62,527 nucleotides of DNA, taken from the NCBI GenBank assembly GCA_049968235.1, contig JBMFRC010000017.1:1-62527 (forward strand). Direction: 5' to 3'. The translations under genes and the position numbers were made by a program. Position 1 is the stretch's first letter, and every line of letters begins with the position of its first letter. A model generated the notes under the pieces. The model searched no databases and was not told the DNA's origin. It saw nothing but the letters and a program-made list of their open reading frames with translations. Positions 13,363-59,110 of the stretch are shown in pieces. Origin of the DNA: Candidatus Hydrogenedens sp. GTDB taxonomy: Bacteria; Hydrogenedentota; Hydrogenedentia; Hydrogenedentales; Hydrogenedentaceae.

Positions 13363-16079
13363 AAAACTTTATTGAATTATTGCAAAGCATATCATTATCT
13401 CCTCAAGATGGGATTTCTATTAATGAGTTTTTGTCTTCTGCTAAAAGATACTACAGGCAAAGTTGGGAAGAAATTCGTCAGAACCATAGAGAGGGATATT
13501 CCGGCAGACAAATACTGAAGCAGTTAAGTGAAATTACGGATATTCTCATTGAAGGGGTTTTATTGTATGCTTTATATGATTGCAATATAAATAAAAAAAT
13601 ATTTGACGGTATTTCCCTTTGTGCTTTAGGGGGGTATGGTCGTAGAGAATTATCGCCTCATTCCGATTATGATTTATGTTTTTTACATAAAGAAGAGATA
13701 GATAATTCTGTATTAGAGCCATTAATTCAAAGTTTTACAACGATGTTATGGGATTTGGGATTACATGTGAGTATTTCAATTTATACAGTTCCGGAAGCCT
13801 TGCAACTTATCGAGGACGACTCCAAGACCTATACTTCTTATTTACATATTCGAAATATTACAGGTCAATCTCGATTGTCAGAATTCCTGAAAGAAGGGTT
13901 GAAAGGCATATCTCAAAATGCTAAGGCAAAGGTATACGATATTATTTTTCAACGTATAGGAACTGCCTTTGCACAATCGGGAAGAGATTTATTTTCTCAT
14001 GAACCCGATATAAAAGAAAATGCAGGAGGATTAAGAGATTACCATGCATTATTATGGATTTTAGGACTGGAAAACAATTGCGGTTCAACCCTTGAAGACT
14101 TAGAAAAAAGTGGTTATGTTGAAAATAATACATATCTTTCCTTAGTAGATAGCCTTGATTTTCTATGGAAAATACGCAATGAACTTCATTTTATTAAAAA
14201 TAGAAATTGGGATTTATTAACTGTAGAAATGCAATATCATCTGTCTCAATTTCTTAATTACGGAGGTTCTGCGGATGAGGCAATTGAAAGATTTATGGAA
14301 GATTATTATTCTTCAGCAATGAGGATACGTTTATTGTTCGAATATATTGCCCGTAAAACGGAACAGAAAAATTTCCCAAAGACATATATTGAAATTCCTT
14401 CTTCAAATGTTGACGATAAATCTAATTATATATTGTATAACGGCTATTTAACACCGCGAATAGATGATAACAATTGGTTTGTGGAGAATCCTGTTCGTAT
14501 CATGGAATTATTCTGGGAAGTCTCCCGTAGAAAAGTGCCAATAGGATACACAAACCAGCATTGGATACAACAAAATTTGCATTTAATTAATGATAGTTTC
14601 CGAAACAATGATGTTGTCAGCAAATACTTGTTATCTATATGTAGCAAGCCCTTTTCTGCTGGATTTACATTTAGAGAAATGGAAAAGTTAGGTGTCCTAT
14701 CTAAATACATACCAGAATTTGGTGCTATTCAAGGAATTGTCCGATACAAAGATTTTCACAGTTATCCTGTCAATGAGCATATTTTGAGAGCGATTGAGTC
14801 ATTAGAAAATATTCCTCGTATGTCAGGTTCTATTGGAGAGATATTTAGAAAAGTATTAAAAGAAATTGAGGAACCACAAATTCTTGTCCTATCAATCCTT
14901 CTTCATGACCTCGGCAAGGTAGAAGGCGAGAGCCATATAGAAGCGGGAGTCCATATAGCAAGAACTGTTTGTGATAGATTGGGTTTATCTGATGAAGATA
15001 CAGAACATGTATCGTTTCTTGTTAGGAATCACCAACTTATGGTAAATGTAGCATTATATAGGGATATTGATGACACAGATGTTGTTCAGGCATTTGCCTC
15101 AGAGGTAAAAACAGAAAAAATTCTTAAAGAACTTATGATAATGAGTTATGCAGATTTATTTGCGGTAGGTCCCAATGTATGGAACGAGTGGAAGGGCTCT
15201 TTATTAGTCAATTTATATTTTAAAACACTACGAATGTTAAAAAAAGAGTATTTAAATGATATAACGGCTGAAGAAGCACTAACAGAGAAAATTAATCAGA
15301 TACTGGAAAAAGTTCCACAAAGAAATCGTTCTGAATTAGAATACCATTTGAATTCAATGGGTTCCGGCTATCTGGATGCATTTACCCCTGATGATATTAT
15401 CATACACCTGGATTGTTTGGAAGAAGCAATGGAAAAGGGGCTGGCGGTACGATGTTGGTCAAATGAATCTATAGGGATGAGTTACTTCGTTGTTGCTACA
15501 CGGGATAAACAGGGGTTATTTGCCCAAATTGCTGGATGTTTCGCTTCACAACTTATTGATATTTACAGTGCTTCTCTATATACCCGAGAAGATGGATGGG
15601 TTATGGATTATTTCCTTGTTCGCGATGCACCTCAACGGAGACCTCTTACAGAAGGACAGATTGTAACATTAGAAAAAACATTACGCTCGGTTATTTTAGA
15701 GGGTAAAGATGTGCAAATCCTTGTTGACAAAACAAAGACGAAATTATTTGCACTCAAAAAATCTCTGGCCCCTGTTCAGACATATATCCATTTTGATAAC
15801 GATTCTTCTAATAAACATACAGTTATTGATATAGAAACAGGAGACCGAACAGGTTTGTTATATGATATAGCCTCTGCTTTTTTCGTTATGGGATTGAACA
15901 TATATAAAGCAAGAATTAATACAGGGGCTTATCGGGTCCGTGATTCTTTTTATGTACAATTTCGTGATAGTAAAATAACACATAGAATATTACAATCCGC
16001 TATTCGTGCCGGATTGTTGGAATCTATTGATGCACAAAACATTCAACAGGAGCAAAACAATGACGAACACAATGACTAA
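13359..16079 (+). CDS. glnD: Bifunctional [protein-PII] uridylyltransferase / uridylyl-removing enzyme GlnD.
   Basis: Nucleotidyltransferase motif ALGGYGRRELSPHSDYDLCFLH. HD domain LLHDLGK. Two C-terminal ACT domains (TVIDIETGDRTGLLYDIASAF). 906 aa. Apparent TTG start overlapping the batE stop. Confidence 0.85.
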   Translation: MKNFIELLQSISLSPQDGISINEFLSSAKRYYRQSWEEIRQNHREGYSGRQILKQLSEITDILIEGVLLYALYDCNINKKIFDGISLCALGGYGRRELSPHSDYDLCFLHKEEIDNSVLEPLIQSFTTMLWDLGLHVSISIYTVPEALQLIEDDSKTYTSYLHIRNITGQSRLSEFLKEGLKGISQNAKAKVYDIIFQRIGTAFAQSGRDLFSHEPDIKENAGGLRDYHALLWILGLENNCGSTLEDLEKSGYVENNTYLSLVDSLDFLWKIRNELHFIKNRNWDLLTVEMQYHLSQFLNYGGSADEAIERFMEDYYSSAMRIRLLFEYIARKTEQKNFPKTYIEIPSSNVDDKSNYILYNGYLTPRIDDNNWFVENPVRIMELFWEVSRRKVPIGYTNQHWIQQNLHLINDSFRNNDVVSKYLLSICSKPFSAGFTFREMEKLGVLSKYIPEFGAIQGIVRYKDFHSYPVNEHILRAIESLENIPRMSGSIGEIFRKVLKEIEEPQILVLSILLHDLGKVEGESHIEAGVHIARTVCDRLGLSDEDTEHVSFLVRNHQLMVNVALYRDIDDTDVVQAFASEVKTEKILKELMIMSYADLFAVGPNVWNEWKGSLLVNLYFKTLRMLKKEYLNDITAEEALTEKINQILEKVPQRNRSELEYHLNSMGSGYLDAFTPDDIIIHLDCLEEAMEKGLAVRCWSNESIGMSYFVVATRDKQGLFAQIAGCFASQLIDIYSASLYTREDGWVMDYFLVRDAPQRRPLTEGQIVTLEKTLRSVILEGKDVQILVDKTKTKLFALKKSLAPVQTYIHFDNDSSNKHTVIDIETGDRTGLLYDIASAFFVMGLNIYKARINTGAYRVRDSFYVQFRDSKITHRILQSAIRAGLLESIDAQNIQQEQNNDEHND

Positions 16080-17487
16080 ATTTATAAAGTTTCTATCAAT
16101 GATTGCAGTTACGATACTAATTGCTCGAATATCGTATGCAGATATTCTCGAAGAGATAGAAAAGAGATTTATTGAAATACATGAAAAGGTAGGATGTTCA
16201 GTAGTCAATATTGAACGAGAATCACAAATTAATGCTGTCCCCATAAATCGCGAAGAATTATTTAAGCAATTTGGGTTACCAGTTCCAGAAGAAAAAGGAA
16301 CTCCATCGCTTCCCCCTAAAGAACAGAAGCAAAAAGTTACAGGTACCGGTTCAGGCTTTGTTTATTCCAAAGATGGATACATTATTACCAATAATCATGT
16401 AATAGAAGATGCAGATAAAATTACAGTAAAAACTGTATCCGGAAAAAAATATCCGGCGAAGGTAATTGGTGCTGATTCGGAATCCGACCTCGCTGTGATT
16501 AAAATAGAACCTGAAGAAGAGTTAGTACCTGTTATATTAGGCGATTCAGACCAGTTAAAAGTAGGGCAATTTGTTGCTGCAATTGGAAGTGCTCGCGGTT
16601 TGGAAGGTTCTGTTTCTTTTGGTCATATCAGTGCTTTAGGTAGGGAAAATCTTAGAGAATTACAACTGCAAGGACTTACATTTCAGCATTTAATACAGAC
16701 TGATGCAGGAATTAACCTCGGGAATAGTGGAGGTCCTTTAACAAATATTAAAGGCGAGGTGATAGGAATCAATGTCGCCTTAATGTTAGGTGCTAATAGA
16801 ATCGGTTTTGCAATTCCTATAAACACTGCGAAGCAAGTAATTCCTCAACTGATACAGGGCGGTAAGGTTGTAAGAGGCTATTTAGGTGTCGCTGTAACCG
16901 ATGTAGAACGCTATGGTGAAGCCTTAAATTTGCCAGCCAGTTCCGGTGCATTTGTAAAAAGAGTTCAGGAAGGAACACCTGCAGAAAAGGCAGGAATTAA
17001 AGTGTATGATGTTATTTTGAAAGTGGATGAACATGAAATTCAAACGGCACAGGATTTAGTTAATACCGTATCTTCCTATATGCCCGGGACCTCAGTAGTT
17101 TTAGAAATATGGAGAGATGAAAATAAAATTTCATTACCCATTACATTGGGAGAAAGAAATTTGCAAATTGCACAAAAGCCCCAGAAAAATGTGTCATTTT
17201 TAGGTATGACTTTTGTGGATTTGGACAGTAAGAGCAGGGAAAAATTAGGACTACCTCCTGATAGTCAAGGAGTTTTGATAGAAAATATTGAGACAGGAAG
17301 TCCCGCAGAAGAAGCAGGCTTGTTCCCCGGTGATATTATTTTAGAAGTTCAAAGGAAAATAGTTGGCAGTGTGAAGGACTTACTGGCAGTTCTCCCAGAC
17401 CTTATCAATTCAGGGAAACCCATTATGATTCGTTATCAACGAGAAAAACAAGAACCCGATATTACCATTGTTAGTGTTGCTCCATAA
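16060..17487 (+). CDS. htrA: HtrA/DegP-family periplasmic serine protease with two PDZ domains (catalytically intact).
   Basis: Triad context GSGFVYSKDGYIITNNHV (His), DLAVIKI (Asp), GNSGGPL (Ser). Two PDZ segments. ATG at 16060 overlaps the glnD stop (16079); an alternative ATG at 16072 is possible. The track start at 16006 is a GTG inside glnD. Confidence 0.85.
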   Translation: MTNTMTKFIKFLSMIAVTILIARISYADILEEIEKRFIEIHEKVGCSVVNIERESQINAVPINREELFKQFGLPVPEEKGTPSLPPKEQKQKVTGTGSGFVYSKDGYIITNNHVIEDADKITVKTVSGKKYPAKVIGADSESDLAVIKIEPEEELVPVILGDSDQLKVGQFVAAIGSARGLEGSVSFGHISALGRENLRELQLQGLTFQHLIQTDAGINLGNSGGPLTNIKGEVIGINVALMLGANRIGFAIPINTAKQVIPQLIQGGKVVRGYLGVAVTDVERYGEALNLPASSGAFVKRVQEGTPAEKAGIKVYDVILKVDEHEIQTAQDLVNTVSSYMPGTSVVLEIWRDENKISLPITLGERNLQIAQKPQKNVSFLGMTFVDLDSKSREKLGLPPDSQGVLIENIETGSPAEEAGLFPGDIILEVQRKIVGSVKDLLAVLPDLINSGKPIMIRYQREKQEPDITIVSVAP

Positions 17488-21060: not shown

Positions 21061-21148
21061 TGATTACTTTTTAAATACTCAATCGTTAAAAATAGTTGAA
21101 TGGTTTTATATAATATAGTATTTATACATTCAATTATAGGAAAGAACT

Positions 21149-22549
21149 ATGAAAAATATAAAAGTAAATAGTGTGATTCGTTTACCCTTTTCTTTCATTT
21201 TATTATGTATTATTTCTATTGCGGGTTGTAAAACACTTTACAATGGAGGTGTTTTACAATCAGAGATATTAAAAGCCAAGACAAAAGTTATTCCCGCATT
21301 GGTACATTTAACCCCTGTTAAACCCGTTTATAAATTAGGAAAGAAAGAAGAAGTAATAGCAATTGGAAGTGGTTTTGTCATATCAAAAGATGGTTATGTT
21401 GTAACAAATGAACATGTTGTAGGTGAAACTAAGAAGGTAAAATGCATTCTGAGTGATAAACGGGAGATAGAAGCGGATGTGGTTGGAACAGACCCATTTA
21501 CAGATATTGCGGTCTTAAAACTTCCTCCCCAAGAAAAATATGCATTTGTATCTATGGGCGATTCGGATGCTGTGCAAACGGGAGAAATTGTTCTTGCTAT
21601 GGGTAGTCCCCATGGACTTGCTCGTTCTGTATCTATGGGAATTGTAAGTATGACAGACCGCTATCTGGAAGATTCAAGAGGCGTTATCTCTGTTTTTAAT
21701 AACTTTATACAAACAGATGCAGCGATAAATCAGGGAAATAGTGGTGGTCCTCTGGTAAATTTAAAGGGAGAAGTGATAGGTATTAATTCACGAATGCTTG
21801 TAGGAGCAGAAAATGTAGGATTTGCTATACCCATTAACATAGCCAAAGAGGTGGTAGAAGAGATTATTAAATATGGAAAAATAAATAGAAGTTGGTTGGG
21901 ACTAAATTTGCAAGAAATGAAAGCAATAACAGAAGATACGAATAAACAGGGGGTTGTTATTGCCGATGTTGAAATTGATTCTCCAGCATATAAAGTAGGA
22001 ATTCGCTCAGGCGATATTCTAACGGCAGTTAATGAAGAACCTGTTCATGCAAGATTTCAAGAAGACCTGCCATTGGTAAGAAAAAAATTGGCTAATTTAG
22101 AAATAGGAAAAGAGGTAGAACTTACGGTTATGCGGGGAGATAAAGAAGAAAAAGTGAAAGTTCTCCCTGATGTGTACTCCGCTTATAAAGGACAGGAAAT
22201 AGAATTTACAGAATGGGGTTTCACTGCTTCTGATATTACAAACGAAATGGTAAAAAGACTGAGAATTCCCAATAGAAACGGTATTTATATTTCAGGTGTT
22301 CAGGATGGTAGTATTGCAAAAATATCGGGATTATTAGCGGGAGATGTTATTTTAGAAATAGAGGGAAAGCCTATAAAGAACCTTGAAGAATTTTTGAATG
22401 TATATAAGCAGACAATTAATAATGGACAACCCCGTATTTTACTTTTTGTCCAGCGGGGCGTTGTTACTCGATATGTTTTGGTAAAAAATACTATGGAAGA
22501 ACAACCAGAAGTTAAAATTATGGATGAAGGACATACAAGTCATGAATAG
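21149..22549 (+). CDS. htrA: HtrA/DegQ-family serine protease with PDZ domains (catalytically intact).
   Basis: GSGFVISKDGYVVTNEHV, DIAVLKL, GNSGGPLVN. Lipoprotein-like N-terminus ISIAGC. Confidence 0.85.
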   Translation: MKNIKVNSVIRLPFSFILLCIISIAGCKTLYNGGVLQSEILKAKTKVIPALVHLTPVKPVYKLGKKEEVIAIGSGFVISKDGYVVTNEHVVGETKKVKCILSDKREIEADVVGTDPFTDIAVLKLPPQEKYAFVSMGDSDAVQTGEIVLAMGSPHGLARSVSMGIVSMTDRYLEDSRGVISVFNNFIQTDAAINQGNSGGPLVNLKGEVIGINSRMLVGAENVGFAIPINIAKEVVEEIIKYGKINRSWLGLNLQEMKAITEDTNKQGVVIADVEIDSPAYKVGIRSGDILTAVNEEPVHARFQEDLPLVRKKLANLEIGKEVELTVMRGDKEEKVKVLPDVYSAYKGQEIEFTEWGFTASDITNEMVKRLRIPNRNGIYISGVQDGSIAKISGLLAGDVILEIEGKPIKNLEEFLNVYKQTINNGQPRILLFVQRGVVTRYVLVKNTMEEQPEVKIMDEGHTSHE

Positions 22550-23912
22550 CCCTTTTATAATGACAGCCATCTTAATCATTCAAAATGTAGCATTACTATT
22601 TGCACCTTCTCAGTTAGAAAATATTTATAATCAGATAAATCCCTCTATTGCGTTGGTTCAGTACTCATCCGAAGTAACAAATCAAATGACAGGTGAAGTT
22701 TCACGAAGAGATGGAAATGCCCTTGGCTTACTGGTATCCCCTGATGGATTGGTAATGGTTCCCGGTTTTGTGGAAGTAGAAAATGTCTCTTCCTTTAATT
22801 TCCGGGTCCGATTAAATATAAGGGGGGAGGAAAAGGAATTTAATGCGGTAAAATTGAGAAAACCCGATGACCTTAATATTATGTTCTTAAAAATTAATAA
22901 TGACACAAATACAAAATTCCCTTTTACACAGTTTGTTGAAGATTCCCCCAGGGTAGGTTCTGAAATTGCAATAATCGGGATATTAGGGGAAACAGTAGAT
23001 TACACGCGTTGTATCACAACGGCTCGGATAGGGGCTATCCTGGAAAAACCACGATTAACTTACTGCCTGGATGAAAATGTACGATTAGGATTTGTAGGTG
23101 CTCCTGTAATAAATGAACAGGAAAATGTTATCGGAGTTGTGGGTTTTGATTTAAGTAAAGCAGAAGGTGGAGAAGTGTACACGAGAAGCGGACATCCTCT
23201 TTTATATCAATATGCGTTATTCAAAAAATATATACAAAATCCTCCGGCTGTTCAATCTCAGGATGATGAACAAGGGGCGTGGTTGGGCGTTATTACACAA
23301 CCGCTAACCGATGATTTCGCAGAATATTGGGGCTTGCCTAAAGAAGGGGGCTTGATTGTTGCCACTATTGTAAATCCATCTCCAGCATCCGAGTGTGGCT
23401 TAAAGGTAGGGGATATTATTACGAATTTTAATGGTGTGCCTATTAAAGCCAAATATGACAGCGATGTTACTTCATTTACTAAATTAGTAAGAGAGGCTGG
23501 CGTTGGAAATTCAATTAAAATAGAAATTCTTAGAAATAAACAACCTATGACATTAATAGCGTTATTAGGGACGAGACCTCGCAGGTCATCCGAGGCAGAA
23601 GAGTATGAATGGGAAGCAGTAGGAGTAACTGTCCGTGAAATTACACCTGATATACGAATCGCATTAAGTATTGAAGACGCTGTTCAGGGTGTCTTAGTAT
23701 ATCGTGTTAAATCAGGAAGTCCTGCACAGATTGGAAGGTTAGCACGAGGCTTTATTATTCAGGCAATTGGAGATTTGCCTGTAAGGTCTATAGACGAATT
23801 TAAAACAGTTACAAAAATGCTACAGGAAAAGAAACCTAAAGAAATTACATTTTTCGCAAGGATTGGAAATATTTCAGGATTTTTTAGAGTACAACCTCGA
23901 TGGAATGAATAG
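22542..23912 (+). CDS. HtrA-like pseudo-protease (trypsin fold with two PDZ domains; catalytic His and Ser replaced).
   Basis: Aligned to the neighbouring HtrA, the His position reads LVMVPGFVE (His to Phe) and the Ser motif reads GFVGAPVIN (GNSGG to GFVGA). Asp is retained (DLNIMFLKI). Two PDZ segments (GAWLGVITQPL...GDIITNFNGVPI; GVTVREITPDIR...GFIIQAIGDLPV). Start ATG 22542 in ATGAATAG overlap with the upstream stop. Confidence 0.7.
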   Translation: MNSPFIMTAILIIQNVALLFAPSQLENIYNQINPSIALVQYSSEVTNQMTGEVSRRDGNALGLLVSPDGLVMVPGFVEVENVSSFNFRVRLNIRGEEKEFNAVKLRKPDDLNIMFLKINNDTNTKFPFTQFVEDSPRVGSEIAIIGILGETVDYTRCITTARIGAILEKPRLTYCLDENVRLGFVGAPVINEQENVIGVVGFDLSKAEGGEVYTRSGHPLLYQYALFKKYIQNPPAVQSQDDEQGAWLGVITQPLTDDFAEYWGLPKEGGLIVATIVNPSPASECGLKVGDIITNFNGVPIKAKYDSDVTSFTKLVREAGVGNSIKIEILRNKQPMTLIALLGTRPRRSSEAEEYEWEAVGVTVREITPDIRIALSIEDAVQGVLVYRVKSGSPAQIGRLARGFIIQAIGDLPVRSIDEFKTVTKMLQEKKPKEITFFARIGNISGFFRVQPRWNE

Positions 23913-23973: not shown

Positions 23974-24049
23974 GCGGGATTAACTCAGTTGGTAGAGTGC
24001 CAGCTTCCCAAGCTGGATGTCGCGGGTTCGAGACCCGTATCCCGCTCCA
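23974..24049 (+). tRNA. tRNA-Gly (anticodon CCC), CCA encoded.
   Basis: Manual cloverleaf: acceptor GCGGGAT/ATCCCGC; U8A9 = TA; D-stem ACTC/GAGT; anticodon stem CCAGC/GCTGG with loop TTCCCAA (anticodon CCC); T-stem GCGGG/CCCGT with loop TTCGAGA; discriminator T, then CCA. Confidence 0.85.
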
Positions 24050-24126: not shown

Positions 24127-25458
24127 ATGTATCCAGAAGATAAGAAAATTGATTTAAGTAATATGAATATTCTTATTGCAGATGACCAGGAAAGTTTGAC
24201 CGGTACTTTGGAAAGGGTTATAAAAAATATCTGGGGCTGTACAATTAAGTGCGTTTATAATGGTGATTCTGTATTGACAGAATTAAATAACGGGTATATG
24301 GGGAAGCCTTATGATGTATTAATAACGGATATGATAATGCCGGGCATCTCAGGATTGGAACTAATTCGTAAATCTTTAGAAATTCATCCGGGATTGGCAA
24401 TACTTGCAATGACCGCATATAAAGATGACTTTTCTTTTCTGGATGTATTCAAAGCGGGAGCCCATGATATATTGTTAAAACCTTTTTCAAAAGATGAATT
24501 ACAGGCAAAATTATACAGAGTTCTTCGTGAAATACATTTTATTCAATCCTGTCGTTCTGCAGAGAGAAGATATAGAGGACTTTTCAATTTATATGCGGAT
24601 GGTATCTTAATTCTTTATCCTGCGAATGGAGTAATTAAAGAATCAAATCATGCACTTACGGAATTGTTAGGATATAAAGAGGGAGAATTAGAAGGAGAAT
24701 GTTTTTATAAAGTTTTAACAGAACAGGAAAATACTCGATTTAAAAAATGGTATGAAGTTTTTCTTGTCGAAGGGACAGGGACACTATCTGATGTACAGGT
24801 AATAAAGCGAGATGGAACGATAATCCATTGTGATATTTCTGGTGCCCGTGTGATTACAGATCTTGATGATAATGTTTTTCTTATATTAAAAGATATAACT
24901 GAGCGAAAAAAAATGGAAGATGATTTAATTGAAGTTGCTCAAAAGGATGAATTAACAGGTCTGTTTAATAAAAGATCATTTGAAATGCAAATAGAATGGG
25001 CTGTAAAAAATGCAGAAGAAAGCTATTCGAACTATGCTCTCCTTATGATTGATGTAGATAATTTTAAAGAATGTAACGACACTTATGGACATACCGTAGG
25101 AGACCAGGTACTCAGTAATTTAGGAAAAATTATTGCGAGATGTATTCGTGGTAGTGATTCCGGTTTCCGTTTTGGTGGGGATGAGTTTGCTGTTATTTTA
25201 AGTGGAACTGACTCATCAATTAGCATAAAAGTGGCTGAACGAATTCAGAAACAATTTGCAAAGACAGAAACCTTTGGGACTTCTCTAAGTATTGGAATTG
25301 CTCAATTCAAAATAGGAATGTCCGTTGGGGAATTTGTGTTTCTTGCAGATAGAGCCCTATACGATGCCAAAAACCATGGAAAAAATGCTGTATTTTGTAT
25401 TAATCCGCAGGATAAAGTAGAATTATTACCTGAGATTCTTAGTAAAACGGATAATTAA
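24127..25458 (+). CDS. Response regulator with REC, PAS and GGDEF domains (diguanylate cyclase).
   Basis: REC ILIADDQ...DVLITDMIMPGISG...KPF. PAS region. RFGGDEF active-site motif. Shine-Dalgarno GAGGG. Confidence 0.85.
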   Translation: MYPEDKKIDLSNMNILIADDQESLTGTLERVIKNIWGCTIKCVYNGDSVLTELNNGYMGKPYDVLITDMIMPGISGLELIRKSLEIHPGLAILAMTAYKDDFSFLDVFKAGAHDILLKPFSKDELQAKLYRVLREIHFIQSCRSAERRYRGLFNLYADGILILYPANGVIKESNHALTELLGYKEGELEGECFYKVLTEQENTRFKKWYEVFLVEGTGTLSDVQVIKRDGTIIHCDISGARVITDLDDNVFLILKDITERKKMEDDLIEVAQKDELTGLFNKRSFEMQIEWAVKNAEESYSNYALLMIDVDNFKECNDTYGHTVGDQVLSNLGKIIARCIRGSDSGFRFGGDEFAVILSGTDSSISIKVAERIQKQFAKTETFGTSLSIGIAQFKIGMSVGEFVFLADRALYDAKNHGKNAVFCINPQDKVELLPEILSKTDN

Positions 25459-41817: not shown

Positions 41818-44517
41818 CTATGCACCTCCGGGAGCAAAACCATCTTCTGTATTTGGGTCCTGATGATAATAACCACCAGAACTATTAAACAACTGAATAA
41901 CACGCAATATCTCGTTTAGATTTATTTGAAAGTCAGGTGGATTGTAATCTGCAGTATGGTTGGAGCAATTTCTGGGTCCGGTTGGGATTGGTGCATATCC
42001 ATCTTCCGTTCCCTGTTTACACGAATAACCTCCTGCATTGTAAAATTGAATTACACGAAGAAGTTCAACTAACTCAATTCGCCAATTGCCATTAGTATCA
42101 CAGTTATGGTAAGGTAAAACTTCTCCTTCCGCTTGTCCTTCGGGTATCCCCTCAGGTGTTCCTTCTAATGTTCCTTCTGTCGTTCCTTCAGAAATACCTT
42201 CAATAGTCCCTTCATTTCCACATGCGTTGAATATCAATACCCATTCTTCTACACGTCCCTGGCCTCCTGAAACAGCATCTGCAACCTGAAGTGTCCATGT
42301 GCCATACATATTTTCACCAGTGAAAGTTGATAGTGGCATAGCAGGTGCGAATACGCCTGTATAAGGACTTGAACCTGCTTCAAGAGATATAGATGATGAA
42401 TCGGAGAATACCGTATTTACCATATTGATACCCCCTTGCGGAACGGATGTGAATAAAAGGACCTCAGTTCCTAAAGGAGATATCAGTTTCATTCTTAATT
42501 GACTGACATCCGGATGAGTTACCGTTACACGAATTTTCACATTTTGAATAATTCTTGAAAGAGGAACTTGTAAAGGTAAGAAACTATTACCCGGGTCTAA
42601 TAATGTAGAAAAATGATTGGTTTTGAATTCAACATCACAATCCGGATATTGAATTTCCCCTTCTCCTTCTACGGGTGTTCCTTCCCCTTCTCCTTCTTCT
42701 CCTTCAGGTTCTTCACCTTCTAATGTTCCCTCGAAGGTTGTCCGGGGGCATATTCCATCGTAGCCAACCCAACACCCTTTTGCTTCTAAAAGTGGTATTT
42801 GTTCACATAACACTGATTCAGGTAAAGGATTCCCTTCTAAACCTATCTCATCACCTGAACCTAAACCTACATTCTGGATTAGTGATTGAATATCTTCAAT
42901 TTGATTGTCCCATAAGAATAAATGTTCTAAATTTTCTAAGTTTTGTAGAGCATGTATATCGGATATGTTATTTCGTCCTAAATTGAGTAGTTTAAGTCCG
43001 AATAATGAACTTAAAGGTGAAATATCAGTAATATTATTATTCCATAAAATAAGTGTCTCTAAATTTCTGATTTTATAAATTCCCGTCAAATTTTGAATAT
43101 TACGAGAAGAAGCGTTAAGGGTCTTCAAAATAACAAGGTCACCTTCATAAATATCTTTTGTTTGTTCGTACCCCAGTGCATCTTTTACTGCTGCTTCTAA
43201 ATTGGGGTCATCAAAATGAACTACTTCTCCGGCACCGAAAACATCAATTAGAACTTTTTGGGATAACACCTCTTCTGTTCCGGATACTGCTCTGCATTGA
43301 TATTCACCCTGACTGGAACCTGATATAGGGTTAATAACCCATTGATTTGAATTCGGTCCTGAAATAACACCGTTATGACTCCAGTAAAAAGTCGGTACTG
43401 TCGTTCCACCTTTTACTTTAAATAAAAGCACCGCCTCTTCACCCACATTATACAAACCACCAACAGGTTGAATGAGTATCTGGAGAGGGACTTTACGTAC
43501 ACCCAGATATACGCCCCATGATTGTCTTCCTCCTAATCGAGTTGATGGGTTATAAATTGATGCAGAATCAGAAACCGCAATAGAAAATCGTGCATTGTCT
43601 AAGATTGTTGCATAAGGAATAATATAAGTTGAAGAATTGGGTCCCACAATTTCAAATGATGAAGGGAAAGAGTAACCGTTTGAATCTGTTCTTAACCACT
43701 GGAAGGTTAAAGGACCATCTCCTCCGGTTACCTGTACAGAAAGTGTCGCCTGGTCTCCTGTATCAATAACACCTGGATTTGCCCCAATACCTATTATTCT
43801 CGGAGGAGGAACAATACTACATCTACTAAACCATACTTCGCGTGTACCTGCCCCGGAATATGCCTGGATATTCGTTTGTCCATTTCCATCTATATCTCCA
43901 CCTGCACCTAAATAATTGGTTCCTGTATTTCCAAATGTTACATAACGACTCGGTCCAAAATTAATATAGTCATCTAAATTAATATAATTTAAAGCCCAAC
44001 CATAACCTTCCCGTTCTGCAAAATATCGCACAAGGTCTTTTAAGAAATTATTCAGAAAATTAAATGTTACAGAATCTCCACAAGTCATATAGCCCGCAAG
44101 GAAATACTGAACCGCAAAAGCAAGGAGAGGGTCCTTGTTACGAAGTTCATTAATTACATCAAAGTGCATTGTTTGCCCTAATACATTCAAAGTAATATTT
44201 AAGTCTCTTTCTACTTGTTGCATATTGGCTCGAAAGCCTTCTTGTATGGATATAATTCTGTCTAAAGGAATTTGCGGAGAATTATTTAACAAGACTGCAG
44301 ATAGTAATCCAAGATGGTCTTCCTCTTTTAGTCCATTACCATCACGGTCAGCTCCATAAATATGAGCAAATCTTCCAGGTGCCATGTCATCTAAGGTATA
44401 GTCAACTGCCCATAAAATATAATCATAATCTACATCGATGCGGTCTGTGTATCCTGAAAATGAATATATCAATGAGATTGCCAGGATTAGAATGTTAAGT
44501 AAGTTTCTAACTTTCAT
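41818..44517 (-). CDS. Large secreted surface protein: internalin-like LRR region, Ig-like domains, proprotein-convertase P-domain, Glu/Gly linkers, and a C-terminal tandem EF-hand/dockerin-like module.
   Basis: Signal MKVRNLLNILILAISLIYSFS, with Shine-Dalgarno GGAGG before the internal ATG at 44517. 22-aa LRRs NLETLILWNNNITDISPLSSLFGLKLLNLGRNNISDIHALQNLENLEHLFLWDNQIEDIQSL. Ig-like FQWLRTDSNG and GEYQCRAVSG. P-domain IRVTVTHPDVSQLRMKLISPLGTEVLLF...GTWTLQVADAVSGGQG. C-terminal DTNGNWRIELVELLRVIQFYN...EDGYAP and a second copy. Confidence 0.7.
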   Translation of the reverse strand: MKVRNLLNILILAISLIYSFSGYTDRIDVDYDYILWAVDYTLDDMAPGRFAHIYGADRDGNGLKEEDHLGLLSAVLLNNSPQIPLDRIISIQEGFRANMQQVERDLNITLNVLGQTMHFDVINELRNKDPLLAFAVQYFLAGYMTCGDSVTFNFLNNFLKDLVRYFAEREGYGWALNYINLDDYINFGPSRYVTFGNTGTNYLGAGGDIDGNGQTNIQAYSGAGTREVWFSRCSIVPPPRIIGIGANPGVIDTGDQATLSVQVTGGDGPLTFQWLRTDSNGYSFPSSFEIVGPNSSTYIIPYATILDNARFSIAVSDSASIYNPSTRLGGRQSWGVYLGVRKVPLQILIQPVGGLYNVGEEAVLLFKVKGGTTVPTFYWSHNGVISGPNSNQWVINPISGSSQGEYQCRAVSGTEEVLSQKVLIDVFGAGEVVHFDDPNLEAAVKDALGYEQTKDIYEGDLVILKTLNASSRNIQNLTGIYKIRNLETLILWNNNITDISPLSSLFGLKLLNLGRNNISDIHALQNLENLEHLFLWDNQIEDIQSLIQNVGLGSGDEIGLEGNPLPESVLCEQIPLLEAKGCWVGYDGICPRTTFEGTLEGEEPEGEEGEGEGTPVEGEGEIQYPDCDVEFKTNHFSTLLDPGNSFLPLQVPLSRIIQNVKIRVTVTHPDVSQLRMKLISPLGTEVLLFTSVPQGGINMVNTVFSDSSSISLEAGSSPYTGVFAPAMPLSTFTGENMYGTWTLQVADAVSGGQGRVEEWVLIFNACGNEGTIEGISEGTTEGTLEGTPEGIPEGQAEGEVLPYHNCDTNGNWRIELVELLRVIQFYNAGGYSCKQGTEDGYAPIPTGPRNCSNHTADYNPPDFQINLNEILRVIQLFNSSGGYYHQDPNTEDGFAPGGA

Positions 44518-44771
44518 ATTTTGCCTCCAAATTATATACATATTTTTATTTATTCCTGATTAAATATTATATCCTATTTTTATTATATAACAAATCCATT
44601 AACAAAAATTAAATTAAAATGCCAAATTTTTAACATAATATTTTTGTATAAAAATATGTGATTCTTTATTGTAAAAATTGAAAAACAAGTTTGTTTTATT
44701 TTATATTTTAGTTTATACTTATATTGTGATTTAATTATGATATTTTTTAATTAAAAATAAAGGTAAATCAG

Positions 44772-47109: not shown

Positions 47110-50100
47110 ATGAAAATTTATGTGCTCAAAAGTAGTATTGGTCTTTTGTTCGTATTTGCTGTGTGTATGCTGATACTAACATTAGACGCACATACTCAGA
47201 CTTCTTCGGCATATTATGTCGGAGACCCAAATGGTCCGGATTTGAATGCACCCAGTGGTTCAACACTGGTATTTAATACGGATGCATTGACCATGACAGG
47301 ACAAAATGGAGCAACGCCATTCAGTCATAATGCAAGTAATGAAGGTGGTGTTGCCGTTTATAGGTTTAAAAATGTCAATATTTCGACAGGTGTGACAATA
47401 AATGTATTAGGTTCAAGACCATTAGCTTTATCAGCCTATCGAGATATGTCAATTGCCTCCTCATTTAATGTAAATGGTTCAGTAGCGGGTCGTTCTGGTG
47501 GTGGTGTTGGCGGAAGTGGTGGTGTTGGGGGAGCAGGTCGCCCTGGTGGTTCAACGGCGGGTGCTGGTGGTGCGGGGGGGCCAGGCAGACCCGGTGGACC
47601 CGGTGCAGATTCTTTCTGGCAACAGGGACAACCCGGTCAAAATGGTGTAGGAGGTTCAGATGGTTCTCCTGGTCAAAATGGTTTTGCAGGTCAGAACGGT
47701 GGTGCAGGTGAGCCAGGTACTTTTGGATTTGGAACACAGGGGGGTCCTTCTGGAGGCACATTAGGTCAGGGTGGAACGGTAGGTGGTGCAGGTGCTCAAA
47801 ATGGAGTGGGTTCAACAGCAGTTGGTACTTTAGGTGGAGGTGGTAGTACAAGTTTCCCTCATGGTAGTAATGGTGGAAATGGAACAAATGCAAATTCATC
47901 TTTACCGGGAACAAATGGACAAAATGGACAGGCAGGTGAAAGTGGGAAAAATGGTGGAGATGGTTATAGTGGTGTTTTTAATGTTCCTGTTAATACATTA
48001 GATTTATTCGGTGGTGCTGGTGGAGGCGGAGGTGGAGGCGGAGGTGGAGGTCAAGGTGGTGGTCAAGGTGGTGGTGGAGGTGGTGGTGCTAGCGGAGGTA
48101 GTGGTGGTGGCGGTGGTGCAGGTGAGTATCTTGCGGACCGTGCAAATGGAGGTAGTGGTGGAGCCAGTGGAAAAGGTGGTGATGGTGGAAGAGGTGGTAA
48201 TGGAGGTGTTGGCGGAAGTGGAGGTAACGGTGGTAATGGAGCAAATGGTGGTGGTGCAATAATACTTTCTGCTCGTGGTTTATTAAGAGTTCCATCCCTT
48301 ATGACCGTAGATGTTTCCTGTACATCCCCTACAACAGGTTCTTCCGGTTCTCTTGCCCCTGCATTAGGGCAACCAGGTGGTCCTCAAGTAGGGTATCCAT
48401 CTACGGGAAGAGGTTTTGGACAGGCAGGTGGTGAAGGTCAAGTAATTAATTTGTTGTTATTTACCATTGAAGGAGGAGATGGCGGTAGAGGTGGAGATGG
48501 AAATTTAGGTGGTGCAGGTGGAAATGGAGCGGTAGGTGGTAACGGTGGTTCCGGTGGGAACGGTGGATATGCAACTCCGGGTATGGTTAAACTACATGGT
48601 TCTATTGTTATTGCCAATAATCTTGTTGTAACAGCAGGAGGAGCCAGAGATGCTTCTGCTGAGAATAATGGAAAATTAACACTAATTTCTAATATGAATG
48701 ATACATTGATTAATGCATATCAGCCGAATACTTCCCTTTCAACACCTACATTAGTTCGCGGTTCAACAACAAATCCTGCTATTCAAGGGATTTCTAATTT
48801 TACAGATGAAATTAGATTTCCTAATCATTATTATAAACATCCATTTATTCCGCAATTACTTCAAGGACCTTCCGTTGAAGGACTTTTACAGTCTCCATAC
48901 TGGAATGAGAGTTTTGTGAATGCTATAACACCCAATCAAGTTATTCCTGCTGGGGCACCGCCAATGACCCCAAGAGTAGTATTAAAAAGACTTAATTATG
49001 GATATGGAAATAATTACAGTCCATTTAAAGAGTTTGACCAGATTGTTGTTATCAATGAATCTTCAACACAAACATTTTCAGGTTTATATTTGAAAGTAGA
49101 TAATGCTACAGCGAATCCTCCTGCAACTCCGAAGAAAATTAATAATGGTACAGGAGAACTGGCACCGGGACAAATCTGGACAACGACAGTTCCGTATGAT
49201 GCTCAGGTAACATTATTACAATTGGCACAGATAACTCAGCAACCTACGGATGTCGCTGTTTGGCCCGGTGGTTATGCGCAATTTAGTGTTGTTGCCCAAA
49301 GTTCATCATCGATTGATTATCAGTGGTTCCGTAATACAGATGGAACATTCAGAGAGATAATAGGTGCTACAAATAGTTCGTATGAAATTTTAACTGTATC
49401 CGAAGCATTACAGGGATGGTATCGAGTACGTCTCAGAAATAATGCCGGAGATGTATTTTCAAGAGATGCTTTCCTGAATGTTCTTGAAGCACCCATTATT
49501 ACTCAACATCCGCAGGATGTAAATGAGTATCCTAATATGTTGGTTTCGTTTAATGTGGAAACATTGAAGCCTACAGACCCACCTCCTGCCCCGGGTATTG
49601 ACCCATCTATTGATTATACAATAGTAAGTCGTGGGTATCAGTGGCAGTTTGCTCCACAGTTAGAACCGCCTGAATTACCTCCTGAAACAGTTCCACCAAG
49701 TGAAAATTTCTATGATTTGCCGGGGGCTGATGCAAGAGAAAAAACATATAATATTGCATCAATAAGTGAGGCAAATCAAGGGTGGTATCGAGTTAAAGTA
49801 ATGAATGATACGGGAACCGCTATATCAAATCCAGCAAAGTTAAATGTCTATGATGGTGTTCGAATTTTAGAACAACCTACAAGTATATCCGCACCACCCC
49901 ATGCTAATGTTACATTCCAGACACGGGTAACGGGTGCGTTACCTATTTGGTGGCAATGGCAAGTAGCTCCATCTACAAATGGTCCATGGACAAATATTCC
50001 TGGACAAACCGGTTCGTATCCAATAGGAACTTCACCGAGTGGTAATCCACCAGGATTTACAATTACTGCTAATATCCTTGATGTTACAGCAAACGCGTAT

Positions 50101-57715: not shown

Positions 57716-59110
57716 TTATTTGTTATTTTTGAATATATTTACACGATTTCCACCGGAACGTTTTGCGGTATACATACAATTATCTGCAAATCGTATAAAG
57801 GAACGAAGAGAGAATTTTTCTTTATATGCAATGACACCGATAGATAGAGTTAAATTATTGAATTTCTTCGCTTCAAATGATGAACGAATACGGTCTGCTA
57901 CCAACAATGCTTGGGTTGTATCGGTTTCAGGCAAGATTATAGTAAACTCATCACCACCATATCGAAATCCTGTGTCTACATGTTCACGGGTACACTCTTT
58001 GACAATCTGTCCAACTGTTTTTAATACTTTATCACCCATTAGATGACCGTGACAATCGTTATAGGTCTTGAATTGGTCTATATCAAAAAGTAATAAGGAT
58101 AGAGGATGTCGTTGTCTTTTGGCTCGTTCTATTTCGGATTCCAATCTATCATAAAAATACCGCTGATTATATAAATCTGTAAGGCTATCTTTTATGGATA
58201 TTTCTTTCAGTTTATTTTCCAGTTCTTTCTGTGGGGTTATATCTTTGAAAATAGCCAGAATTGAATGGATTAGTTGTTTTTCTTTTTTTACGCAAGAAAA
58301 TGAAATATTCACAGGAACTTGTTTTTTATCTTTTCGAACGAATTCTGTTTCATAATTTTGCACGCATTCTTTTTCACGAATCATTTGCAGTATGTATTTT
58401 GATTCTTCTTTTGAGCCTGCTAAAAGAAATGATAAATACTTCTCTTTTATTTCATCTTCTTTATAGTCTAATATATGTAATGCCCCTTGATTTGCGTAGT
58501 TGATTTGAAATGCGGGGGTCAAAATAAAAATACCATCTACAGAAGTATTGATCAGTTGTTCAAGATATTCTTTGGTTTCTCTTAATTCCTTGTTTGTAAT
58601 TTTTAGTTGTTCTGTTGCTTCATGAATACGCTGTTGCAATTCTTTCTCATGGTTTTTTTGAGCCATGATAAGAGAACGATGTTCTAAGGCTCTTCTTATA
58701 GCAATTTTAATTTCTTCTAATTGAAAAGGTTTGAGAATGTAATCATAAGCCCCTAATCGCAATGCTTCAATGGCATTTTTTACATCCTGTAAACCGGTCA
58801 TCATTATTATTTCAAGGTCGGAATGTTGTTCTTTTGCTTTTTTGAGAAAGTGTAAGCCATCCATTTCTGGCATTAGATAATCTACAAGAGCTAAAGAAAA
58901 AGGTTCTTTAGATATTTTAGAAAGGGCTTCCTTAGGAGATGTTGTAGAAATACAATTATAATTTAAATCTTTCAGGAAAGTTTGGATGAGTTCGAGGATG
59001 GTTGTGTCATCATCAACTACAAGTATTTTATCTCTCTGTGTGAATTTACTTCCTTTTTTCTTTGAGATATCGGTATTCTGGATATTTGCAGATGCTTTGT
59101 CTTTCTTCAT
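57716..59110 (-). CDS. Response regulator with REC, PAS and GGDEF domains (diguanylate cyclase); paralog of the 24127 gene.
   Basis: ILVVDDD...LALVDYLMPEMDG...KPF (REC). PAS. RYGGDEF. Confidence 0.85.
   Translation of the reverse strand: MKKDKASANIQNTDISKKKGSKFTQRDKILVVDDDTTILELIQTFLKDLNYNCISTTSPKEALSKISKEPFSLALVDYLMPEMDGLHFLKKAKEQHSDLEIIMMTGLQDVKNAIEALRLGAYDYILKPFQLEEIKIAIRRALEHRSLIMAQKNHEKELQQRIHEATEQLKITNKELRETKEYLEQLINTSVDGIFILTPAFQINYANQGALHILDYKEDEIKEKYLSFLLAGSKEESKYILQMIREKECVQNYETEFVRKDKKQVPVNISFSCVKKEKQLIHSILAIFKDITPQKELENKLKEISIKDSLTDLYNQRYFYDRLESEIERAKRQRHPLSLLLFDIDQFKTYNDCHGHLMGDKVLKTVGQIVKECTREHVDTGFRYGGDEFTIILPETDTTQALLVADRIRSSFEAKKFNNLTLSIGVIAYKEKFSLRSFIRFADNCMYTAKRSGGNRVNIFKNNK

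What the first reader, a model, noticed from the sequence alone, without database searches (positions are those of the whole stretch)
22542..23912. Catalytically dead HtrA paralog translationally coupled to an active HtrA
The 21149 gene is a canonical HtrA (His in TNEHV, Asp in DIAVLKL, Ser in GNSGGPL). The downstream gene overlaps it (ATGAATAG) and keeps the trypsin fold and both PDZ domains. Aligned to the 21149 gene, its His is replaced by Phe (LVMVPGFVE) and the GNSGG serine motif reads GFVGA; only the Asp survives. An inactive PDZ-bearing HtrA subunit made in a fixed ratio with an active one suggests a hetero-oligomeric cage or a regulatory, substrate-capturing subunit, in the way DegS/DegQ oligomers are gated by PDZ domains.
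Basis: seen in the sequence. Interest (0 to 1): 0.5.

Follow-up and report, generated by a model that had tools for sequence, protein, structure and literature searches.

The report
Inert HtrA partner of active HtrA
This gene encodes a protease look-alike that has lost all three catalytic residues. It is strongly conserved and always sits directly behind a working HtrA protease gene, in this phylum and in several others, so it is probably a non-cutting helper subunit rather than a dying gene.

Summary
Gene 22542..23912 (Candidatus Hydrogenedens MAG) is a full-length HtrA homologue: trypsin fold, two PDZ domains and a signal peptide. Its start codon overlaps the stop codon of a canonical HtrA (21149..22549) by 8 nt (ATGAATAG). 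The canonical Asp position, however, is Asn112, not Asp, in three independent alignments. All three triad residues are therefore gone.

It is not a pseudogene. dN/dS is about 0.06. Orthologues occur in at least 80 Hydrogenedentota species. The nucleophile is never Ser in 81 sequences. Every locus with upstream DNA has the active, lipobox-bearing HtrA directly upstream, and start and stop overlap in 59 of 66.

More distant inert relatives, 68 of the top 150 cluster representatives, occur in Planctomycetota, Calditrichota and Zixibacteria. All nine examined show the same active-then-inert tandem. About 55 active HtrAs of ~680 aa carry a second PDZ pair of the inert-gene type, which looks like a fusion.

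The best reading is a non-catalytic, PDZ-bearing partner subunit of the upstream lipoprotein HtrA. Physical association is inferred, not shown. The closest precedents are MamO/MamE, Deg5/Deg8, PflC and the Leptospira LIC20143/20144 operon. I rate it a new variant of a known kind, of moderate interest.

The parts
21086..21114 (+). Possible sigma-70-like promoter (TTAAAA-17-TATAAT) in the 88-nt gap upstream of gene 1. Weak evidence.
   Evidence: The number of promoter-like sites in the region (17) is not clearly above shuffles (12.4 +/- 3.6), so this is only a candidate.
21149..22549 (+). Gene 1: an active HtrA/DegP-type serine protease, 466 aa. It has a lipoprotein signal (lipobox SIAGC, Cys27 at 21227..21229), His89 (21413..21415), Asp119 (21503..21505), Ser198 (21740..21742) and two PDZ domains.
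   Evidence: The triad is intact in 66 of 66 orthologues. A conserved ..xGC(A/V)T lipobox Cys is present in the orthologues.
22527..22531 (+). Shine-Dalgarno-like AAGGA for gene 2, inside the 3' end of gene 1 and 10 nt before the ATG.
   Evidence: Sequence. An SD-like motif 4-16 nt upstream of the start occurs in 63 of the 64 related loci where a start was found (66 examined).
22542..22549 (+). 8-nt overlap ATGAATAG. The start codon of gene 2 overlaps the last codons and the TAG stop of gene 1 in a different frame.
   Evidence: Overlaps of 1-14 nt occur in 59 of 66 Hydrogenedentota loci and 4-8 nt overlaps in 4 of 9 distant loci.
22542..23912 (+). Gene 2: an inert HtrA-like protein (pseudoprotease), 456 aa plus stop.
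   Evidence: NCBI calls the identical protein P0001 'PDZ domain-containing protein'.
22542..22604 (+). Sec-type signal peptide (MNSPFIMTAILIIQNVALLFA) with no lipobox Cys.
   Evidence: By inspection. Orthologues all begin with a short polar N-region, a hydrophobic core and an AxA-like site, and have no conserved Cys.
22614..23270 (+). Degenerate chymotrypsin-fold domain (residues ~25-243). Triad positions are Phe76 (22767..22769, ttt), Asn112 (22875..22877, aat) and Val185 (23094..23096, gta). The L3-equivalent loop is about 9 aa shorter than in gene 1. The L2-equivalent loop carries a 4-aa insertion and the family motif GFDLSxAEGGxxYxRSGHPLxYQ.
   Evidence: alignments; column counts; conservation: L2-equivalent 0.82 vs domain mean 0.63; dN/dS 0.06-0.07.
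23277..23576 (+). PDZ1 (residues 246-345), with a conserved carboxylate-binding loop AWLGV.
23616..23909 (+). PDZ2 (residues 359-456), with the conserved loop GxTVRE and the C-terminal motif GFFRxQPRW.

Best explanation
Gene 2 encodes an exported, catalytically inert HtrA-family protein (Phe76/Asn112/Val185 in place of His/Asp/Ser). It keeps the protease fold and both PDZ domains. It is the obligate genetic partner of the active, lipid-anchored HtrA encoded directly upstream. The two are transcribed together and translated in a coupled way, because the start codon and its SD lie inside the end of gene 1.

The most likely function is a non-catalytic subunit that works with the active HtrA in the periplasm. 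Its two PDZ domains, and the still-constrained former active-site cleft, would capture unfolded or C-terminal peptide ligands. They would either build mixed or stacked oligomers with the active trimers or gate their activity, while the lipoprotein partner tethers the assembly to a membrane.

Shown: inert triad, intact fold, purifying selection, conserved tandem and overlap across phyla, and a family-wide derived inert lineage. Inferred: export, co-translation ratio, physical association and PDZ-mediated substrate capture.
For: Inert. Triad columns come from three alignments. The nucleophile column is V68/I9/A2/T1/M1 and never Ser in 81 orthologues. No GNSGG motif is present in 68 full-length distant relatives.

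Functional. NG86 dN/dS is 0.066, 0.059 and 0.067 for the inert protease domain against L001-L003, compared with 0.07-0.11 for the active gene. Mean pairwise identity across 67 species is 0.52 for the inert domain and 0.58 for its PDZ domains. The most conserved segments are the former cleft loops, with the L2-equivalent at 0.82.

Partnering. An orthologue of gene 1 lies immediately upstream on the same strand in every Hydrogenedentota locus that holds upstream DNA: 66 complete and 7 partial or interrupted. Its triad is intact in 66 of 66. Start/stop overlap is seen in 59 of 66 and an SD-like site in 63 of the 64 loci where a start was found. Nine of nine distant inert relatives, from Planctomycetota, Calditrichota and unnamed lineages, also follow a Trypsin+PDZ HtrA, with gaps of -8 to +228 nt, while the flanking genes all differ. 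Five partners that were checked keep TNxHV/DIAV/GNSGGP and score 320-400 bits against gene 1. On the protease-domain model of the gene 1 family they average 269 bits, against 183 for the window's third HtrA.

One old lineage. All 60 distant inert proteins score higher on the inert-domain HMM (mean 63.5 bits) than on the active-partner HMM (11.5). Active proteins do the opposite.

Fusion hint. In 55 active HtrAs of ~680 aa, the first PDZ pair is gene-1-like in 55 of 55 and the second pair gene-2-like in 54 of 55. One such gene has no inert gene downstream.

Different targeting. Gene 1 has a conserved lipobox. Gene 2 has a plain signal peptide.

Precedents. MamO promotes MamE proteolysis without needing its own triad (PMC4794232). 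Deg5/Deg8 form hetero-oligomers (PMC4877387).
Against: No direct evidence of a physical complex exists. The tools gave no multimer prediction, no PAE and no coordinates. In the MamO/MamE precedent no physical interaction was detected. Co-operonic, coupled genes can act sequentially rather than in one complex.

The 4-PDZ 'fusion' set was selected by similarity to the gene 2 profile, so the PDZ-type comparison is partly circular. Only one genomic context was inspected.

The L3 sensor loop of the inert protein is shortened, so DegS-like allosteric relay through it is uncertain. Signal peptide and lipobox calls rest on inspection and regular expressions, not a dedicated predictor. Taxonomic breadth rests on a few MAG labels, some obviously wrong (Nitrospirales, Bathyarchaeia).
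Confidence: 0.6

Rival explanations
1. A stand-alone periplasmic holdase or chaperone. The inert protein forms its own homo-oligomers, as DegP S210A does, and binds unfolded envelope proteins independently. It is only co-regulated with the protease, giving a division of labour between a pure chaperone and a pure protease.
For: The full HtrA architecture, intact PDZ loops and a constrained cleft are what a substrate-binding, non-cutting HtrA needs. Chaperone activity of protease-dead DegP is established knowledge (cited within PMC4877387). MamO and MamE showed no detectable interaction.
Against: A stand-alone chaperone would not need such tight linkage. Linkage holds in 73 of 73 and 9 of 9 loci, with overlapping start and stop in most, while all other neighbours change. 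The active HtrAs carrying a gene-2-type PDZ pair in the same chain argue for action in one particle.
Confidence: 0.22
2. A structural scaffold co-opted from HtrA, like C. jejuni PflC in the flagellar motor, with a role unrelated to proteolysis.
For: PflC is a periplasmic protease-PDZ-PDZ protein without a triad, and also has Asp replaced by Asn. It forms a lattice (PMC12222027). HtrA proteins oligomerise readily.
Against: In PflC the active-site region is the most divergent, atrophied part. Here the cleft loops are the most conserved part. No conserved neighbour other than the active HtrA points to any machine. The family spans phyla with different envelopes.
Confidence: 0.07
3. A cryptic enzyme or small-ligand binder. 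The family-specific L2 motif (invariant Asp203 and Ser216, near-invariant His218 in GFDLS...RSGHPL) forms a new active or metal/ligand site, so the protein is not inert.
For: The L2-equivalent loop is the best conserved segment (0.82). It holds a Ser, a His and an Asp that are invariant or nearly so in Hydrogenedentota. MamO shows that HtrA-derived pseudoproteases can gain metal binding.
Against: The motif is not conserved in the distant inert relatives that share the same tandem (RHGYP, RPGYP, RYDHP and others). Residues 207-216 are predicted to be disordered (pLDDT <50). No coordinates were available to test the geometry. Ser and His two residues apart is not a known protease arrangement.
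Confidence: 0.05
4. A decaying duplicate (pseudogene) of the upstream HtrA.
For: All three catalytic residues are lost.
Against: The ORF is intact in 80 species. dN/dS is 0.05-0.07, at or below that of the active gene. The family has its own invariant motifs. It is conserved across phyla.
Confidence: 0.01

Closest known systems
MamO / MamE (and MamE1/MamE2) of magnetotactic bacteria (PMC4794232)
   Same: An HtrA-derived pseudoprotease is retained next to an active HtrA paralogue. The presence of the inert protein, but not its triad, is needed for the active one to cleave its targets. Duplication followed by loss of the triad happened repeatedly.
   Different: MamO has a C-terminal TauE transporter domain and a di-histidine metal site, no PDZ pair, and is magnetosome-specific. 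Gene 2 does not match the MamO model and is far below the MamE and MamP cut-offs. No MamO-MamE contact was detected. Here the pair is a general envelope module spanning several phyla.
Arabidopsis Deg5/Deg8 hetero-oligomer (reviewed in PMC4877387)
   Same: Two HtrA paralogues assemble 1:1 from homotrimers into one complex. [quoted passage not shown] This is a model for a stack of an active trimer and an inert trimer.
   Different: They are eukaryotic thylakoid-lumen proteins with unlinked genes. Association of the present pair is not shown.
PflC of Campylobacter jejuni (PMC12222027)
   Same: A periplasmic protease-PDZ-PDZ protein of HtrA origin without the triad. Asp is also replaced by Asn.
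   Different: PflC is 364 aa and forms a flagellar-motor lattice. Its active-site region has atrophied, and it is not encoded next to an active HtrA. Here the cleft loops are the most conserved part.
Leptospira interrogans LIC20143/LIC20144 and LIC11112/LIC11111 operons (in-silico paper PMC7709667)
   Same: A triad-bearing HtrA gene is followed in the same operon by an 'HtrA-like' gene in which only PDZ domains are recognised. For LIC11112/11111 a stop/start overlap and a heterodimer were proposed.
   Different: That work was annotation only. The second gene was described as PDZ-only, not as an inert protease domain. Homology of LIC20144 to this family could not be tested here because no sequence was available.
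Canonical DegP/DegQ (E. coli, Legionella; PDB 3otp, 3pv2)
   Same: They share the domain order, the predicted fold (Foldseek E 7e-28), periplasmic location and two PDZ domains.
   Different: Identity is only ~20%. Gene 2 has no His/Asp/Ser, a shortened L3 loop and an extended L2 loop, and falls below the TIGR02037 cut-off (111 vs 416 bits).

Membership tests
HtrA/DegP/DegQ serine endopeptidases (MEROPS S1C; TIGR02037) | Chymotrypsin-fold protease domain | tested here: met
   Trypsin_2 1.8e-7. The AF2 model (pLDDT 81) matches DegP/DegQ at E 7e-28. hhalign to the active partner family gives prob 99.96%.
HtrA/DegP/DegQ serine endopeptidases (MEROPS S1C; TIGR02037) | His-Asp-Ser catalytic triad with the GNSGG nucleophile/oxyanion motif | tested here: not met
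   Phe76, Asn112 and Val185. The motif reads GFVGA. Ser is absent in 81 of 81 orthologues.
HtrA/DegP/DegQ serine endopeptidases (MEROPS S1C; TIGR02037) | One or two C-terminal PDZ domains | tested here: met
   Two PDZ domains (PDZ_2 1.4e-14, PDZ_1 3.4e-5). BLASTP of the PDZ pair against gene 1 gives E 1e-15.
HtrA/DegP/DegQ serine endopeptidases (MEROPS S1C; TIGR02037) | Score above the curated family cut-off | tested here: not met
   TIGR02037 scores 111.2 bits against a cut-off of 416.2. No NCBIfam model reaches its cut-off.
HtrA/DegP/DegQ serine endopeptidases (MEROPS S1C; TIGR02037) | Export to the periplasm or cell envelope | tested here: inconclusive
   An N-terminal hydrophobic signal-like segment is present in the window protein and in 64 orthologues. 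No dedicated predictor was run.
MamO-type HtrA pseudoprotease | Degenerate triad in an HtrA-derived domain | tested here: met
MamO-type HtrA pseudoprotease | MamO sequence family, with a TauE domain and a di-His metal site | tested here: not met
   The MamO model NF040961 does not hit gene 2. MamE scores 39.7 bits against a cut-off of 800. There is no extra C-terminal domain.
Hetero-oligomeric HtrA (Deg5/Deg8 type) | The two paralogues physically assemble into one oligomer | not testable with these tools
   Only indirect support exists: a conserved tandem and fused PDZ pairs.
Inert HtrA partner family (defined here: Hydrogenedentota core plus distant relatives) | About 450-490 aa, with a signal peptide, a degenerate protease domain lacking GNSGG, and two PDZ domains | tested here: met
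Inert HtrA partner family (defined here: Hydrogenedentota core plus distant relatives) | Encoded immediately downstream of, and on the same strand as, a triad-bearing HtrA of the gene 1 type | tested here: met
   True for the window, for 73 of 73 Hydrogenedentota loci with upstream DNA and for 9 of 9 distant loci.
Inert HtrA partner family (defined here: Hydrogenedentota core plus distant relatives) | The inert protease domain is closer to other inert domains than to active ones | tested here: met
   True for 60 of 60. There is a caveat: the set was selected with the family profile.
Leptospira LIC20143/LIC20144-type operon | Sequence homology of the second gene to this inert family | not tested
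The arrangement is known only from PMC7709667.

The most novel reading that the evidence does not exclude
The active lipoprotein HtrA and the inert HtrA form an obligate, fixed-ratio hetero-oligomeric protease-chaperone machine. This two-gene module is ancient and spread over several poorly studied phyla (Hydrogenedentota, Planctomycetota, Calditrichota, Zixibacteria, perhaps Leptospira). In some lineages it has collapsed into a single four-PDZ polypeptide. If true, it would be the first bacterial HtrA built from dedicated catalytic and non-catalytic subunits, analogous to ClpP/ClpR rings. The comparison with ClpP/ClpR comes from my own knowledge and was not tested here.
Probability: 0.35. Interest if true: 0.65.

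Novelty: new variant of a known kind. Interest (0 to 1): 0.5.

Why it matters
Bacterial HtrA proteases are textbook homo-oligomers in which each subunit both cuts and binds. A conserved, phylum-spanning pair of one cutting and one inert subunit would show that bacterial envelope quality control can also use dedicated non-catalytic subunits. It would offer a natural system for separating the chaperone/capture function of HtrA from its protease function.

There is a practical point too. Pipelines label these proteins 'serine protease Do' (JGI) or 'PDZ domain-containing protein' (NCBI). The first label is wrong, because the proteins lack a nucleophile, and the second is uninformative. The family has no model of its own in Pfam or NCBIfam.

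Tried and rejected
Pseudogene: rejected by dN/dS, intact ORFs and conservation.

A restored triad elsewhere: I looked for conserved Ser, His and Asp outside the canonical positions. The only candidate is the L2 motif (D203/S216/H218). It is not conserved in the distant relatives and lies in a low-confidence loop. Its geometry could not be tested because no coordinates were returned.

My first count of the 'Asp column' (and again) used Asp110. hhalign and the PDB profile alignment showed the canonical position is Asn112, so those Asp counts refer to the wrong column.

A word-indexed search with a profile of distant relatives added few names (one new phylum, Zixibacteria) and found no Leptospira. 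Two of the three cluster look-ups gave almost no taxonomy.

Literature searches for Hydrogenedentes plus HtrA found nothing. Searches for HtrA pseudoproteases or hetero-oligomers gave only MamO, PflC, Deg5/8, inactive cyanobacterial Degs and the Leptospira in-silico paper.

The promoter and terminator scan was uninformative. Rfam found only the tRNA.

A linker-concatenated AF2 run to mimic a multimer was considered and dropped.
Full report
**What is there.** The window is a contig of a Candidatus Hydrogenedens MAG. The product of 22542..23912 is 100% identical to an NCBI protein named only 'PDZ domain-containing protein'.

Gene 1 (21149..22549, +, 466 aa) is a canonical HtrA. It scores Trypsin_2 6e-32 and TIGR02037 2e-103, has two PDZ domains, and carries the motifs TNEHV, TDIAVLKL and GNSGGP. 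It also has a lipoprotein-type signal (…SIAGC).

Gene 2 starts at ATG 22542, inside the last codons of gene 1, so the overlap is ATGAATAG. An AAGGA lies 10 nt upstream. An alternative ATG at 22524 exists, but it is missing from the close relatives L002, L003 and L006.

**Is gene 2 an HtrA, and is it dead?** Gene 2 matches Trypsin_2 only weakly (1.8e-7). It matches TIGR02037 at 5.7e-32, which is 111 bits against a cut-off of 416. It has two clear PDZ domains. An AlphaFold2 model built on 22 family sequences has mean pLDDT 81, and its best PDB matches are DegP and DegQ at E 7e-28 with about 20% identity.

phmmer against PDB HtrAs, MAFFT against gene 1 and hhalign between the two gene families agree on two positions. 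The catalytic His position is Phe76 (VPGFVE vs TNEHV). The nucleophile position is Val185 (GFVGAP vs GNSGGP).

MAFFT, the family profile against MucD and hhalign (prob 99.96%, E 7e-39) all place the catalytic Asp (T-D-IAVLKL, S-D-VAVLKI) opposite Asn112 (L-N-IMFLKI). Asn112 is invariant in the family. The conserved Asp110 sits two residues earlier. All three triad residues are therefore replaced.

hhalign also shows that the L3-equivalent loop is about nine residues shorter than in gene 1. The L2-equivalent loop carries a four-residue insertion.

**Not a pseudogene.** A pattern scan of one genome per GTDB species found 89 relatives, of which 80 were fetched (L001-L080). Nearly all are labelled Hydrogenedentota. 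A few labels (Nitrospirales, Bathyarchaeia, Rhodothermaeota) are probably MAG mislabels. All 80 have an open reading frame of the same length.

Nei-Gojobori dN/dS of the inert protease domain against L001, L002 and L003 is 0.066, 0.059 and 0.067. That is at or below the value for the active gene 1, which is 0.07-0.11.

Across 81 sequences the nucleophile column is V68, I9, A2, T1, M1 and never Ser. The His column is H68, F6, Y2. Phe occurs only in the window's own clade (the window plus L001-L005). Loss of Ser, and the invariant Asn112, therefore go back to the origin of the family, whereas His to Phe is a late, clade-specific change.

Within the inert domain the best conserved segments are the former cleft loops. 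Mean top-residue frequency is 0.82 for the L2-equivalent (GFDLSxAEGGxxYxRSGHPLxYQ) and 0.72-0.73 for the His loop, the Asp strand and the L3-equivalent (EKPRxTYC). The domain mean is 0.63. Both PDZ carboxylate-binding loops (AWLGV, GxTVRE) are nearly invariant.

**The pairing is the conserved unit.** In every Hydrogenedentota locus that contains upstream DNA, the gene directly upstream on the same strand is the orthologue of gene 1. There are 66 complete copies at 430-900 bits. Seven more are cut by a contig end or interrupted. Two of those seven carry a single in-frame stop.

These partners keep His, Asp and Ser in 66 of 66. They also share a lipobox Cys at the same aligned place (…xGC[AV]T). 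The inert proteins have ordinary signal peptides without a conserved Cys.

The start codon of the inert gene overlaps the end of the active gene by 1-14 nt in 59 of 66 loci. An SD-like motif sits 4-16 nt upstream in 63 of the 64 loci where a start was found.

**The family is wider than the phylum.** A profile search of 1.84 billion cluster representatives gave 684 hits at E<1e-30. The top 150 contain three groups.

- The Hydrogenedentota core, at 400-630 bits.
- 68 full-length proteins of 430-560 aa, at 170-330 bits, that have no GNSGG motif and degenerate triad columns.
- 57 proteins with GNSGG, almost all about 680 aa.

Source names place the distant inert proteins in Planctomycetota, Calditrichota and Zixibacteria. 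They are annotated 'PDZ domain-containing protein' or, wrongly, 'serine protease Do'.

Their protease domains score higher on an HMM of the inert domain (mean 63.5 bits) than on an HMM of the active partner (11.5 bits) in 60 of 60 cases. Active proteins behave the opposite way. This is one old inert lineage rather than many recent decays, although the set was chosen with the family profile.

I looked up nine of these distant proteins in their contigs. All nine lie directly downstream of a Trypsin+PDZ HtrA on the same strand, with gaps of -8 to +228 nt, and six of the nine gaps fall within -8 to +2. Every other neighbour differs. Five partners that I checked have intact TNxHV/DIAV/GNSGGP and score 320-400 bits against gene 1. 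On the protease-domain model of the gene 1 family they average 269 bits, whereas the window's third HtrA scores 183.

**A fusion-like variant.** The ~680-aa proteins are active HtrAs with four PDZ domains. I scored them with separate HMMs for the PDZ pairs of the two gene families. The first pair is gene-1-like in 55 of 55 and the second pair gene-2-like in 54 of 55. One such gene, P0138, has no inert gene after it.

This looks like an active partner that has taken over the PDZ pair of the inert partner. It argues that the PDZ pair is what the inert protein contributes, and that it acts in the same particle. The argument is weakened by how the set was selected and by the single genomic context inspected.

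**Mechanism.** I commit to the following. The inert protein is a non-catalytic partner of the upstream lipoprotein HtrA. It is made from the same mRNA by coupled translation and exported by Sec. It then joins, or docks onto, the membrane-tethered active oligomer. There its PDZ pair and its still-constrained cleft bind unfolded clients and extend or gate the cage.

Shown: inert triad, retained fold, purifying selection, conserved tandem and overlap. Inferred: export, stoichiometry, contact and client binding. Confidence is about 0.6.

The main rival, at about 0.22, is a separate pure chaperone that is merely co-regulated with the protease. A PflC-like scaffold (about 0.07) fits poorly, because here the cleft is the best conserved part rather than the most atrophied. 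A new active or ligand site in the L2 motif (about 0.05) cannot be excluded without coordinates, but that motif is absent from the distant relatives that share the tandem.

**Comparison with known systems.** Four documented cases come close.

- MamO/MamE: an HtrA pseudoprotease that promotes the active paralogue's cleavage without needing its own triad. Triad loss after duplication happened repeatedly in that system (PMC4794232).
- PflC: an inert HtrA used as a motor scaffold (PMC12222027).
- Inactive cyanobacterial Degs.

An in-silico paper on Leptospira notes operons in which a triad-bearing HtrA is followed by a 'PDZ-only' HtrA-like gene, with a stop/start overlap in one of them (PMC7709667). 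This may be the same module, but I could not test the homology.

I found no paper on this family or on HtrA in Hydrogenedentota. The library searched is incomplete. Gene 2 fails membership of the active HtrA family on its defining feature, the triad, and it does not match the MamO model.

**Verdict.** It generalises to an old, multi-phylum tandem of an active and an inert HtrA. The kind, a pseudoenzyme paralogue beside its active relative, is known, including within the HtrA family. The conserved coupled pair with full PDZ architecture, and its apparent fusion form, is a new variant. Interest is 0.5.

Noticed in passing
window 16006..17487 (+): A third HtrA gene of 493 aa, with intact TNNHV/DLAVI/GNSGGP and two PDZ domains, lies 3.6 kb upstream of the pair. 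The genome therefore has a stand-alone canonical HtrA as well as the active/inert tandem. The same gene is present in L001-L003.
   Followed up: partly
P0138 and about 54 other representatives; loci L088/L089: Active HtrAs of ~680 aa with four PDZ domains. The second PDZ pair resembles the inert gene's pair more than the active gene's pair. P0138 has no inert gene downstream. This is a possible fusion form of the two-gene module.
   Followed up: partly
window 23139..23210 (gene 2 residues 200-223): The L2-equivalent loop GFDLSKAEGGEVYTRSGHPLLYQ is the most conserved stretch of the inert protease domain (0.82). It has invariant Asp203 and Ser216 and near-invariant His218, yet is partly predicted to be disordered (pLDDT <50 for residues 207-216). 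Its role is unexplained.
   Followed up: partly
L015 1047..1049 and L043 2761..2763: In two related MAGs the active partner gene carries one in-frame stop codon (GAG->TAG, TAY->TAA), while the inert gene is intact. These are either assembly errors or rare loss of the active gene.
   Followed up: partly
window 23974..24049 (+): tRNA-Gly (anticodon CCC) lies 62 nt after the stop of gene 2. No terminator-like hairpin was found between them.
   Followed up: no
window 24127..25458 (+) and 57716..59110 (-): Two paralogous response-regulator-PAS-GGDEF diguanylate cyclase genes. One of them lies directly downstream of the HtrA pair and the tRNA.
   Followed up: no
window 47110..51546 (+) and 41818..44541 (-): Two large proteins with eukaryote-like repeats: a 1478-aa protein with Ig_3/I-set domains, and a 906-aa protein with LRR, Ig and proprotein-convertase P domains.
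   Followed up: no
L004, L007, L012, L017, L021, L064, L076 (record titles): Several MAGs that carry clear Hydrogenedentota-type copies of the pair are labelled Nitrospirales/Nitrospiraceae, Bathyarchaeia, Rhodothermaeota or FCB group. These are probably mislabelled or contaminated bins.
   Followed up: no
JGI annotations of P0021, P0143, P0182 and others: Members of the inert family are annotated 'serine protease Do' or 'S1-C subfamily serine protease' although they lack a nucleophile. This is a systematic mis-annotation.
   Followed up: partly
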